Assembly: GCF_006345805.1 (NCBI RefSeq)
Contig: NC_043009.1
Span: forward strand, 26,226,001 to 26,290,000
Direction of reading: 5' to 3'
Source: Octopus sinensis
Lineage: Eukaryota
DNA length: 64,000 nucleotides
The translations under genes and the position numbers were made by a program. The notes beneath the pieces are model-generated. The model was not told where the DNA came from. It made no database searches and saw only the letters and a list, made by a program, of their open reading frames with translations. Below are positions 16 to 26,440 of the stretch, piece after piece (the stretch's first letter is position 1; each line of letters starts with the position of its first letter).

Positions 16-57
16 CACCTGAAGACGGCTGGAGCGTACAACAGTCGAAACGTAGTG
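16..57 (+). ncRNA. Minimal type I hammerhead ribozyme (PLE-type)
   Basis: Reads CAC-CUGAAGA-C-GGCUG(gagcguacaa)CAGUC-GAAAC-GUA-GUG. Intact core boxes, 5-bp stem II, stem I CAC/GUG, and a loopless palindromic ACGU stem III as in PLE HHRs. Confidence 0.75.
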
Positions 58-25589: not shown

Positions 25590-26014
25590 CCTATCCATTC
25601 TTGTTGCTTCTTTCTCGCGTACATATATATATATATATAAGCTACAGAAGCAATATTTCTTTGGAATAGCATTATGTATATACTCCTGAAAACCGCAAAA
25701 CAGCACTATTTGTCTGAAAGCCTTCGACGATTTAGTGAACAAAAGCAGTAAGAAGTCCGTTGTATAGTACGTATATATATAAGTGTGTGCGTGCGTGCGG
25801 TTTGTGTGTGTGTGATAAATATTTCTACAAACAGGAATAAGTCGATTAGTGTGTTTAAATGTTCAGGAGAGCATCGGTACAGTTTGGGCTACCTGTTGTC
25901 ATGCGCAGTTGGGGTACACTCCCGTTGGATTTACTTCAGGGACTCCGCAGTGACAGTTAGGGTAATAGTGTAACTTAATAGTAGGAGGTGGATTTGGTAT
26001 TAGACTTTTATTAG

Positions 26015-26059
26015 GTACAACATATGTTTCAAACCATCAGTCTCGGTCTCTTCAGGTAC
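26015..26059 (-). ncRNA. Minimal hammerhead motif (left arm of foldback)
   Basis: Reads GUAC-CUGAAGA-GACC(gagacugau)GGUU-U-GAAAC-AUAU-GUU-GUAC, with palindromic ACAUAUGU. Confidence 0.7.
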
Positions 26060-26138
26060 ATTGAAGAAGTTTCAAGTTAGGACATATAACAACAAGCCAG
26101 CCGCTTGTAAAAATCTCTGGTAAGACTTTTGTATGAAT

Positions 26139-26183
26139 GTACCTGAGGAGACCCAGACTGGTGGCTCGAAACATGTGTTGTAC
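26139..26183 (+). ncRNA. Minimal hammerhead motif (right arm of foldback)
   Basis: Reads GUAC-CUGAGGA-GACCCAGACUGGUGGCUC-GAAAC-AUGU-GUU-GUAC. Confidence 0.65.
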
Positions 26184-26234
26184 CTAATAAAGGTCTAATA
26201 CGATATCCTTCTTCTATTTATTAATATTATATAT

Positions 26235-26440
26235 GTAGTAACCACATGTGAATCGTCGGCGATTTTGTTCCTCGGTCTTCCATTTTAGTGGACTTTCCTC
26301 TGTTTCTAAAGAAGAGCGTTGCTCGAAACGTTAAACCATCTTCCTTTCCTTCCCTGAGTGTCTGCTAATACTTTACATGTACCACGTCTTCGCGTTGTTG
26401 TTTTTTGTGTTTGTTGTTCTTTTATGGCCTTACCGTACAT
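26235..26440 (+). mobile_element. Neptune-type PLE 3' terminus with degenerate HHR (26302-26336)
   Basis: Reads GUUU-CUAAAGA-A-GAGC(guu)GCUC-GAAAC-GUU-AAAC. The downstream cctgag.g.c..ctaatac matches the 11646-11781 terminus, and it ends in (TA)n. Confidence 0.7.

What the first reader, a model, noticed from the sequence alone, without database searches (positions are those of the whole stretch)
25975..26225. 250-bp ORF-less element made of two inverted hammerheads
Seen: arms ~25975-26062 and ~26135-26225 are diverged reverse complements, each with a complete minimal HHR pointing outward, around a ~70-bp spacer. Established: retrozymes carry HHRs in direct repeats, and viroid-like RNAs carry HHRs in both polarities. 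Inference: either an extreme truncated and inverted PLE insertion, or a palindromic non-autonomous family (an ambisense, MITE-looking retroelement) whose hairpin would mask its own ribozyme. This is the best candidate for an undescribed element type in the window.
Basis: partly seen in the sequence, partly recalled or inferred. Interest (0 to 1): 0.75.

Follow-up and report, generated by a model that had tools for sequence, protein, structure and literature searches.

The report
Inverted twin copy of hammerhead retroelement
This stretch is two truncated, head-to-head copies of a roughly 490-bp non-coding repeat with several hundred copies that carries a hammerhead ribozyme motif; the layout likely arose in one Penelope-type retrotransposition event and is ordinary for such elements, not a new palindromic element type.

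Summary
There is an 81-nt inverted repeat, 85% complementary, with a 73-nt spacer, and each arm carries an outward-facing hammerhead core motif. The boundaries given are wrong, though. The element runs from 25815 to about 26237 (about 420 bp) and is asymmetric.

Both arms are 5'-truncated copies of one dispersed, ORF-less family of about 490 bp. I describe it as head, A, hammerhead (H), T and an optional 155-nt 3' module X. The genome search gave more than 400 first-look candidates.

Across 65 distinct genomic places, 25 hold adjacent copies joined head to head. None is tail to tail and one is a partial tandem. In 24 of the 25, exactly one arm carries X. The inner break points vary widely. Only one other locus has a junction like the window's, which is about what two truncation hot spots predict.

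Both kinds of 3' end abut (TA)n or (CA)n microsatellites far more often than background. These are the published hallmarks of Penelope-like element (PLE) insertions: an adjacent inverted 5'-truncated copy, a tail at one end only, and microsatellite targets. The genome holds thousands of GIY-YIG PLE copies.

Verdict: this is a routine complex insertion of a non-autonomous, PLE-type hammerhead element, not a palindromic family. The autonomous partner, any RNA and any cleavage remain unshown.

The parts
25803..25814 (.). (TG)n microsatellite abutting the left end of the element (target or flank)
   Evidence: Sequence. The X-end flank of L001 is listed as CA-repeat.
25815..25966 (-). Module X (unit ~521 to 366) of the left arm. 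This is the optional ~155-nt 3' extension ('tail'-like) and is present on this arm only.
   Evidence: (L104: u257-515). In 29 of 29 loci found with an X-only query, X is contiguous with T.
25967..26013 (-). Module T of the left arm, downstream of the ribozyme cut site
   Evidence: Alignments
26014..26059 (-). Left hammerhead motif. The core CUGAAGA..GAAA..GUU is present. Helix II pairs at 3 of 5 positions with G10.1-C11.1 lost. Predicted cut between 26019 and 26018.
   Evidence: Not reported by Rfam at E<=10.
26060..26071 (-). Last ~12 nt of the left arm (start of module A, unit ~255). This is its 5' truncation point.
   Evidence: Single-arm loci match up to window 26064-26074.
26072..26135 (+). 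Start of the right arm: a few nt of head plus module A (unit ~200/209 to 267).
   Evidence: Two loci match from query position 43, which is window 26072.
26139..26184 (+). Right hammerhead motif. The core CUGAGGA..GAAA..GUU is present. Helix II pairs at 4 of 5 positions. Predicted cut between 26179 and 26180.
   Evidence: Rfam Hammerhead_1 scores 19.3 bits, E=0.17, at 26137-26185.
26185..26234 (+). Module T of the right arm, ending at the short ('X-less') 3' terminus (unit ~365). The exact end is uncertain within 26230-26237 because the sequence is TA-rich.
   Evidence: u212-365
26227..26236 (.). Short (TA)n run at the right end of the element
   Evidence: Sequence. In the wider sample, 33 of 40 T ends have a dinucleotide repeat within 40 nt.

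Best explanation
The feature is two 5'-truncated copies of one ~490-bp ORF-less, hammerhead-bearing repeat family joined head to head (window 25815-26071 on the minus strand, 26072-~26234 on the plus strand), and it was likely made in a single insertion event in which a Penelope-like element's enzyme primed reverse transcription from both nicked strands of a microsatellite target.

Shown:
- The family exists. Its unit, on the reference copy L016:1290-1815, reads head 31-211, A 212-267, hammerhead 268-317, T 318-365, X 366-521.
- It has two alternative 3' ends, at about 365 and about 521.
- Adjacent pairs are head to head, with one X-bearing and one X-less arm and variable inner break points.
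- Both kinds of 3' end are enriched for flanking microsatellites.

Inferred:
- One strand's 3' end would prime at the distal start site (the X end) and the other at the proximal AU-rich site at the T/X boundary.
- Both cDNAs would stop early and be joined in the middle. In the window this is at unit ~255 and ~200-210, and both lie in regions where truncation points cluster.
- The copy has since decayed. The arms are 82% alike, both ribozymes have helix II damage, and any transcript through it would fold into a hairpin that hides them.
- The locus itself therefore probably has no function.
For: Family size:
- 428, 423 and 531 first-look candidates with three different queries.

Unit and ends:
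- Defined.
- Copies running from the full 5' end (unit 31-35) to unit 509-518 include L008, L030, L057, L059, L107 and L112.

Geometry of adjacent copies, pooled over 65 distinct genomic places:
- 25 adjacent pairs are head to head, 0 are tail to tail and 1 is a partial tandem.
- 24 of the 25 have exactly one X-bearing arm. The 25th (L023) has an arm reaching unit 425.
- In the two samples drawn with single-module queries, composites are 10 of 28 places and 9 of 28 besides the window.
- Inner break points run from unit 31 to 454 for the X arm and from 51 to 295 for the X-less arm.
- In 9 of the 25 pairs (L012, L013, L017, L021, L029, L037, L050, L065, L089) the X-less arm starts at least 96 unit positions 5' of its partner's start, a stretch the partner lacks. 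Two separate priming events explain this. A snap-back copy does not.

The window's junction:
- In the junction search, only the window and C4:126816698 (L002) among 18 scored candidates span it.
- By arithmetic on the table, 5 of 25 X arms start at unit 251-264 and 11 of 25 X-less arms start at 194-223. About 2.2 composites are then expected to combine both, and 2 are seen.

Flanking microsatellites:
- Within 40 nt of 33 of 40 T ends and 31 of 46 X ends, against a background of 11.5-12.9% of 40-nt windows.

Hammerhead:
- Family copies score 26.6-32.5 bits on Rfam Hammerhead_1 (gathering 34), at the same place in 12 of 20 loci searched.
- Of 66 distinct arms, 35 keep the core pattern and 19 are fully intact.
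- Helix III is 2 bp capped by a palindromic AUAU loop (sequence).

PLE machinery in this genome:
- PF01541 (GIY-YIG) gives 5029 first-look candidates, and 147 matches at E<=0.001 among the 150 scored, all over the cut-off.
- Open reading frames of 780-883 aa carry the GIY-YIG region near the C-terminus (read by eye from the translations; reverse-transcriptase identity not tested with Pfam). Hammerhead-like motifs 5,935 bp apart mark a repeat.

Literature:
- Craig et al. 2021, PMC8557442 (passages): PLE insertions show 5' truncation, an adjacent inverted 5'-truncated copy, a tail at one end only, and a (TA)n/microsatellite bias.
- Frangieh et al. 2024, PMC11167929 (main text): a PLE protein cleaves and extends both strands, starts reverse transcription at two internal sites, and the tail is the stretch between them.
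- Cervera and de la Pena 2014, PMC4209133 (passages): PLE hammerheads have a short helix III with a palindromic loop and probably act as dimers.
Against: - No autonomous partner was found. The family unit has no DNA similarity to 10 GIY-YIG loci with 1.5-kb flanks or to three 10-kb PLE loci. Six-frame tblastn gives nothing better than E=2.4.
- The X module is about 155 nt, whereas the published tail is 30-40 bp.
- In vitro, the anole PLE showed no difference in start site between top and bottom strands. That does not predict the strict rule of one X per pair.
- The two arms are not more alike than unrelated copies. The window's arms are 0.816 identical, against an inter-locus mean of 0.846 (sd 0.048). 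All within-locus pairs average 0.867, n=16. Sequence identity therefore gives no independent proof of a single event.
- Partial tandems (pseudo-LTRs), typical of PLEs, are nearly absent: 1 of 65 places.
- Only 65 places out of several hundred were examined. They were chosen by BLAST score, and the first sample used the composite itself as query, which favours composites.
- No RNA evidence of any kind was obtained.
Confidence: 0.7

Rival explanations
1. The palindromic dimer is itself a propagating non-autonomous family, an ambisense MITE-looking retroelement copied as a unit.
For: One other locus (L002, C4:126816624-126816904) matches the whole unit, 79% over query 1-278. It has the same outer boundaries (window 25821-26237), different flanks, and break points within about 10 nt of the window's.
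Against: - That is the only such locus besides the window among the 18 scored candidates of the junction search.
- The alignment across the junction needs gaps.
- L001 and L002 are no closer to each other (79-80%) than to other copies (80-87%).
- The 23 other head-to-head pairs have different break points.
- Two truncation hot spots predict about 2.2 such coincidences among 25 pairs, and 2 are seen.
- 39 of 65 places hold no adjacent pair.
Confidence: 0.06
2. Two independent insertions of the same family landed next to each other because both target the same microsatellite.
For: Microsatellite association of the ends is strong. The arms are no more similar than random pairs of copies.
Against: Independent hits should give head-to-head, tail-to-tail and tandem pairs at about 1:1:2, and random mixtures of X-bearing and X-less arms. 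Single copies are roughly half and half for X (8 versus 10). What is observed is 25:0:1, with 24 of 25 pairs having exactly one X. No microsatellite remnant lies at the window's inner junction.
Confidence: 0.1
3. A single event, but by snap-back. The first cDNA folds back on itself and copies itself, giving a hairpin, rather than the second target strand priming on RNA.
For: Four of the 25 pairs are nearly symmetric, with inner ends within about 21 unit positions: L015, L049, L101 and L105. The centres of L004, L005 and L015 read as short palindromes.
Against: In 9 of the 25 pairs the X-less arm starts at least 96 unit positions 5' of the X arm's start, a stretch the X arm lacks. The X-less arms stop at unit 346-368 rather than running on into X, which snap-back does not explain. 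The window itself is asymmetric (unit ~255 versus ~200-210).
Confidence: 0.1
4. A DNA-level inverted duplication or fold-back rearrangement after an ordinary single insertion, or a class II element with terminal inverted repeats.
For: The hairpin is long and stable, and such structures can arise by replication errors.
Against: The same one-X geometry recurs at 24 other places. The arms are unequal and no target-site duplication is visible. The family is mostly non-palindromic, 5'-truncated and flanked by microsatellites at the 3' end, which points to an RNA-mediated origin.
Confidence: 0.03

Closest known systems
Complex inverted/tandem insertions of Penelope-like elements (Craig et al. 2021, PMC8557442; Frangieh et al. 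2024, PMC11167929)
   Same: An adjacent inverted 5'-truncated copy joined head to head, heavy 5' truncation, an extra 3' stretch at one end only, (TA)n/microsatellite or AT-rich targets, and a hammerhead shortly upstream of the 3' terminus.
   Different: No ORF. The unit is about 490 bp. The one-end extension is about 155 nt rather than 30-40 bp. Partial tandems (pseudo-LTRs) are almost absent (1 of 65 places). No sequence similarity to the PLE copies examined.
Metazoan non-LTR retrozymes (Cervera and de la Pena 2020, PMC7229834; Li et al. 2026 preprint, 10.64898/2026.07.22.740005)
   Same: Small, non-coding and AT-rich, with a type I hammerhead. They co-occur with PLEs and are thought to be their non-autonomous derivatives. 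'Monomer' copies are described.
   Different: Retrozymes are defined by tandem repeats of 150-450 bp that release circular RNA. This family is dispersed as single or inverted copies, so one ribozyme per transcript cannot excise a unit. No circular RNA was tested.
L1 twin-priming inversions (Ostertag and Kazazian 2001; recalled, not read here)
   Same: Second-strand priming at an internal site gives an inverted 5' part and a direct 3' part. At least five of the asymmetric pairs here (L017, L021, L037, L050, L065; X arm starts beyond unit 365) have exactly this non-overlapping geometry.
   Different: In most pairs here, the window included, the two arms overlap by 100 nt or more, so the same stretch was copied twice. 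The enzyme would be a GIY-YIG PLE protein, not L1 ORF2p.
MITEs and foldback elements (class II)
   Same: A short, ORF-less unit that forms a hairpin.
   Different: Arms are unequal and there are no terminal inverted repeats at the true ends. No target-site duplication is seen. The parent family is not palindromic.

Membership tests
Hammerhead ribozyme, type I (Rfam RF00163) | Conserved core CUGANGA ... GAAA ... UH with helices I, II and III in type I order | tested here: met
   Both arms carry the pattern. GUU and the GUAC/GUAC helix I were read. 35 of 66 distinct family arms keep the core pattern.
Hammerhead ribozyme, type I (Rfam RF00163) | Score at or above the Rfam gathering threshold (34 bits) | tested here: not met
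   The window's right arm scores 19.3 bits and the left arm is not reported. The best family copies score 26.6-32.5 bits.
Hammerhead ribozyme, type I (Rfam RF00163) | Self-cleavage at the predicted site | not testable with these tools
   No RNA holder is on record. Isolated motifs do not adopt the hammerhead as their minimum-energy fold, as expected for dimer-dependent forms.
PLE-type hammerhead (Cervera and de la Pena 2014) | Very short helix III capped by a small palindromic loop, a G10.1-C11.1 pair and a short helix I | tested here: met
   Family copies read GAAAC-AUAU-GUU, with a 5-bp helix II closed by G-C and a 4-bp helix I. In the window, the left arm has AUAU but has lost G10.1-C11.1, and the right arm has AUGU.
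Non-autonomous element mobilised by Penelope-like elements | Insertion signature: 5' truncation, an adjacent inverted 5'-truncated copy, and a tail at one end only | tested here: met
   25 head-to-head pairs, 0 tail-to-tail and 1 tandem in 65 places. 24 of the 25 have one X. The tail length of about 155 nt differs from the published 30-40 bp.
Non-autonomous element mobilised by Penelope-like elements | AT-rich or microsatellite target | tested here: met
   33 of 40 T ends and 31 of 46 X ends have a microsatellite within 40 nt, against an 11.5-12.9% background.
Non-autonomous element mobilised by Penelope-like elements | Sequence shared with the pseudo-LTR or 3' end of an autonomous PLE in the same genome | tested here: inconclusive
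   No similarity to 13 PLE loci. The genome has 5029 GIY-YIG first-look candidates, so most PLE families were not examined.
Metazoan non-LTR retrozyme | Head-to-tail tandem repeats, each with a hammerhead, yielding unit-length circular RNA | tested here: not met
   1 partial tandem in 65 places. Circular RNA could not be tested.
SINE (pol III head) | Head derived from tRNA, 7SL or 5S | tested here: not met
   ARAGORN finds nothing in 5 full-length loci. No such Rfam family appears among the 150 listed of 164 matches (14 lower-scoring ones not seen) over 20 loci.
MITE / class II foldback element | Terminal inverted repeats at the true ends, plus a target-site duplication | tested here: not met
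   The true ends (25815 and ~26234) are not inverted copies of each other, because X is on one side only. No duplication is visible in the flanks.

The most novel reading that the evidence does not exclude
The family records, in hundreds of old insertions, an asymmetric two-strand priming rule for Penelope-type integration. Each event uses two different reverse-transcription start sites 155 nt apart, one per DNA strand. Every inverted insertion therefore carries exactly one long 'tail', and single X-less copies are events in which the other cDNA aborted. If true, this would be genomic, in vivo support for the both-strand extension seen so far only in vitro. It would also extend the 'tail' concept to a module four to five times longer than described.
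Probability: 0.3. Interest if true: 0.5.

Novelty: new member of a known kind. Interest (0 to 1): 0.27.

Why it matters
For the locus itself, very little. It is an old, decayed by-product of retrotransposition, and the palindrome does not define a new element class.

At the family level it gives a compact, ORF-less substrate with two sharply defined 3' termini and a strict one-tail-per-pair geometry (24 of 25). This could serve as a natural data set for how PLE enzymes handle the two target strands, a step the literature I read calls still undefined (Craig et al. 2021, passages; Frangieh et al. 2024, main text).

It is also a caution for annotation. Inverted PLE-type insertions can look like MITEs or microRNA-type hairpins. 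Here a mir-3910 model scored 31.8 bits on the hairpin.

Tried and rejected
- **Rfam at gathering thresholds over the whole window:** no match.
- **Rfam at E-value thresholds:** the mir-3910 hit (31.8 bits, gathering 95) is simply the long hairpin. The mir-297, mir-3149 and mir-1277 hits are TA/TG microsatellites.
- **Earlier notes of this scan:** nothing for this genome or for look-alike sequence.
- **RNA evidence:** no RNA holder is listed. One run guessed to be RNA (X7) has a 185-nt contig on 25817-26001 with 5 differences and no cover on 26064-26237. It may come from another copy or from DNA, so it shows nothing either way.
- **Second laying, of possible RNA runs on a full-length family copy:** sent five times and never answered because the machine was busy. 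Expression, RNA ends and circular joints remain untested.
- **Arm-to-arm identity as a test of a single event:** no power. The value is 0.867 within loci against 0.846 between loci.
- **Search for the autonomous partner:** BLASTN of the unit against 13 PLE loci and six-frame tblastn gave nothing.
- **tRNA-like head:** none found.
- **The window and L002 as sister copies of a palindromic master:** considered and rejected. The reasons are different gaps at the junction, no extra similarity between the two, and the hot-spot expectation of about 2.2 such pairs.
- **X as a separate repeat into which the element inserts:** considered and rejected. X is contiguous with T in all 29 loci found with X alone.
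- **Literature search for 'twin priming' with 'Penelope':** 3 papers in the listing, none on PLE insertion structure judging by title and abstract.
- **Supplements:** I did not open the supplementary files of any paper. The supplementary figures of Cervera and de la Pena 2014/2020 and Frangieh 2024 may show comparable motifs or tails.

Full report
**1. What is in the sequence**

Window 25982-26062 and 26136-26216 form an 81-nt inverted repeat, 85% complementary, with 73 nt between the arms.
- The pattern CTGANGA..GAAAC is found three times in the 64-kb window, against 0.55 expected. Two of these sit in the arms, at 26026-26055 (minus) and 26143-26172 (plus).
- Reading, each motif is preceded by GUAC and followed by a short loop, GUU and GUAC. 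That is a type I hammerhead with a 4-bp helix I, a 5-position helix II and a 2-bp helix III.
- No ORF of 150 aa or more overlaps the region.
- As RNA, the 281 nt fold into a single hairpin of -132.7 kcal/mol, z = -15.
- Contigs of two coded DNA runs cross the centre without a single difference, so the palindrome is not an assembly artefact.

Rfam support is weak. Nothing in the window reaches a gathering score. At permissive thresholds the right arm scores 19.3 bits on Hammerhead_1 (gathering 34) and the left arm is not reported.

**2. The arms are copies of a dispersed family, and the element is larger than reported**

The window lies in a 2.72-Gb genome. A search with 25960-26240 gave 428 first-look candidates and 83 matches from the 40 candidates scored. 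Most hits covered one arm only.

Aligning single copies with their flanks shows a unit of about 490 bp. I numbered it on the reference copy L016:1290-1815:
- head 31-211
- A 212-267
- hammerhead 268-317
- T 318-365
- X 366-521

Copies running from the full 5' end (unit 31-35) to unit 509-518 include L008, L030, L057, L059, L107 and L112.

There are two alternative 3' ends. One is at about 365 ('X-less') and one at about 521. Among single copies in the sample, 8 carry X and 10 do not. X is not a separate repeat, because in all 29 loci retrieved with X alone it is contiguous with T.

In the window, the left arm continues leftwards through X to about 25815, and the right arm ends at the short terminus near 26234. 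The real element is therefore about 420 bp and asymmetric:
- minus-strand arm, unit ~255-521
- plus-strand arm, unit ~200/210-365

The head has no tRNA-like part and there is no coding capacity. Family copies score 26.6-32.5 bits on Hammerhead_1, at the same position in 12 of 20 loci. Of 66 distinct arms, 35 keep the core pattern and 19 are intact in every respect tested. Intact copies have a GACCC/GGGUC helix II and a GAAAC-AUAU-GUU helix III. This is the short helix III with a palindromic loop that Cervera and de la Pena describe for PLE and other metazoan hammerheads, which they think work as dimers (passages). The window's arms are decayed versions. Helix II pairs at 4 of 5 positions on the right. 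On the left it pairs at 3 of 5, and the G10.1-C11.1 pair is lost.

**3. Is the palindrome a family of its own?**

No. I pooled the loci from three searches into 65 distinct genomic places.
- 25 places hold two adjacent copies head to head, none tail to tail and one a partial tandem.
- In the two samples taken with single-module queries, the share of head-to-head pairs is 10 of 28 and 9 of 28 besides the window.
- The inner ends differ from pair to pair. The X-bearing arm starts anywhere from unit 31 to 454, and the X-less arm from 51 to 295.
- A search with the junction itself (26030-26135) scored all 18 candidates. Only the window and one locus on contig 4 (L002) span it, at 75% identity, and the alignment across the junction needs gaps.
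- L002 is no closer to the window copy than other copies are.
- Truncation points cluster. 5 of 25 X arms start at unit 251-264 and 11 of 25 X-less arms start at 194-223. About 2.2 pairs are therefore expected to combine both by chance, and 2 do.
- Single copies also often start near unit 204-216, directly against (TA)n in L009 and L027. This suggests microhomology at the 5' joint.

**4. One event or two?**

Sequence identity cannot decide. The window's arms are 0.816 identical, all within-locus pairs average 0.867 (n=16), and unrelated copies average 0.846.

Geometry can decide.
- Independent insertions should give all orientations and random combinations of long and short ends.
- What is seen is 25 head-to-head pairs against 0 tail-to-tail and 1 tandem, with exactly one X-bearing arm in 24 of 25. 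In the remaining pair, one arm reaches unit 425.
- In 9 pairs the X-less arm starts at least 96 unit positions 5' of its partner's start, a stretch the partner lacks. This excludes a simple snap-back copy for those pairs.

**5. Mechanism**

Both kinds of 3' end abut TA, CA or TG microsatellites: 33 of 40 T ends and 31 of 46 X ends, against 11.5-12.9% of random 40-nt windows. In the window the flanks are (TG)n on the left and a short (TA)n on the right.

Published descriptions match this picture.
- PLE insertions are described as heavily 5'-truncated, often with an inverted 5'-truncated copy adjoining. They have an extension, the 'tail', at one end only and a bias for (TA)n or microsatellites (Craig et al. 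2021, passages).
- A purified PLE protein cleaves and extends both target strands. It starts reverse transcription at two internal sites, and the tail is the stretch between these sites (Frangieh et al. 2024, main text).
- In that element the start sites lie a short distance downstream of the hammerhead cut. Here the two termini lie 48 and about 204 nt downstream of it.

I therefore infer the following. The family is mobilised by a PLE enzyme. One nicked strand primed at the X end and the other at the AU-rich T/X boundary. The two incomplete cDNAs were then joined.

The genome has the machinery. There are 5029 GIY-YIG first-look candidates, and 147 matches at E<=0.001 among the 150 scored, all over the Pfam cut-off. 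There are open frames of 780-883 aa with the GIY-YIG region near the C-terminus (read by eye; reverse-transcriptase identity not tested) and their own hammerhead-like motifs 5,935 bp apart.

What is not shown:
- The partner. There is no similarity to the 13 PLE loci looked at.
- Why the pairing of start sites is strict, given that the in vitro work saw no strand difference.
- Any RNA, cleavage or circular form.

**6. Comparison and verdict**

- The locus works like, and most likely is, a complex inverted PLE-type insertion. The differences from the textbook case are the lack of an ORF, the near absence of partial tandems and a tail of about 155 nt.
- It is not a non-LTR retrozyme in the defined sense, because tandem repeats were found at only 1 of 65 places. 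It resembles the 'monomer' derivatives discussed by Li et al. 2026 (passages).
- It is not a MITE, because the true ends are not inverted repeats and no target duplication is seen. It is not a pol III SINE.
- The hairpin would indeed bury both ribozymes in any read-through transcript. With both motifs already damaged, this is a property of a dead copy rather than a regulatory design.
- Novelty: a new member of a known kind. Interest is low for the locus and modest for the family-level regularity.

Noticed in passing
window 19-51 (+): A third hammerhead-like motif, CTGAAGA ... GAAAC. It has a possible helix II of about 5 bp closed by G-C and one extra nucleotide after the core, a trait the 2014 paper lists for PLE minimal hammerheads. 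It lies at the very start of the window, so its element is cut off.
   Followed up: no
window 26289-26406 (and 25600-25657): A very high-copy repeat. Contig word depth reaches about 3x10^5, against about 10-13 in the unique stretch 25687-25744, and loose ends after 26406 are runs of T. This suggests a SINE-like element on the minus strand with an A-tail, directly beside the hammerhead element. L015 holds an 85% identical copy of 26238-26433.
   Followed up: partly
window 26318-26329: GTTGCTCGAAAC repeats 11 of 12 bases of the 3' half of the right hammerhead (26161-26172). It lies inside the high-copy repeat above. It may be chance or a decayed ribozyme remnant.
   Followed up: no
L115 (G000:C1:207472500-207482499), L113, L114: An abundant PLE family whose GIY-YIG region lies near the C-terminus of the open frame. 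L115 has a 781-aa open frame, a preceding 479-aa frame and an identical hammerhead-like motif at 1084 and 7019, 5,935 bp apart, which fits a tandem or pseudo-LTR arrangement. Many loci show the same 781-aa open frame length, which suggests recent activity.
   Followed up: partly
L114 7424-9998 (+): Open frames of a second, different PLE-like element, with an RT N-terminal region and a GIY-YIG-like stretch, next to the first one.
   Followed up: no
family module X, first ~15 nt (window ~25954-25966, minus strand): X begins with a single CCCTAA unit, the reverse complement of TTAGGG. Telomere-attached PLEs use runs of such repeats (Craig et al. 2021 passage). One unit may well be chance.
   Followed up: no
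L016 1290-1345 and the X 3' end: The 5' start of the family (TTGTCTAAGTATTAA, present three times in L016) resembles the last bases of X (TTTGTCTAAAT...). Such an overlap of end and start is what a tandem or circular master would leave, but no tandem master was seen.
   Followed up: no
sequencing runs X1-X20: Runs under five different organism codes hold parts of the 851-bp stretch. Three codes hold half or more of its sampled words, and contigs under two codes (X1, X2) bridge the junction unchanged. If the codes are different species, the insertion predates their split.
   Followed up: partly
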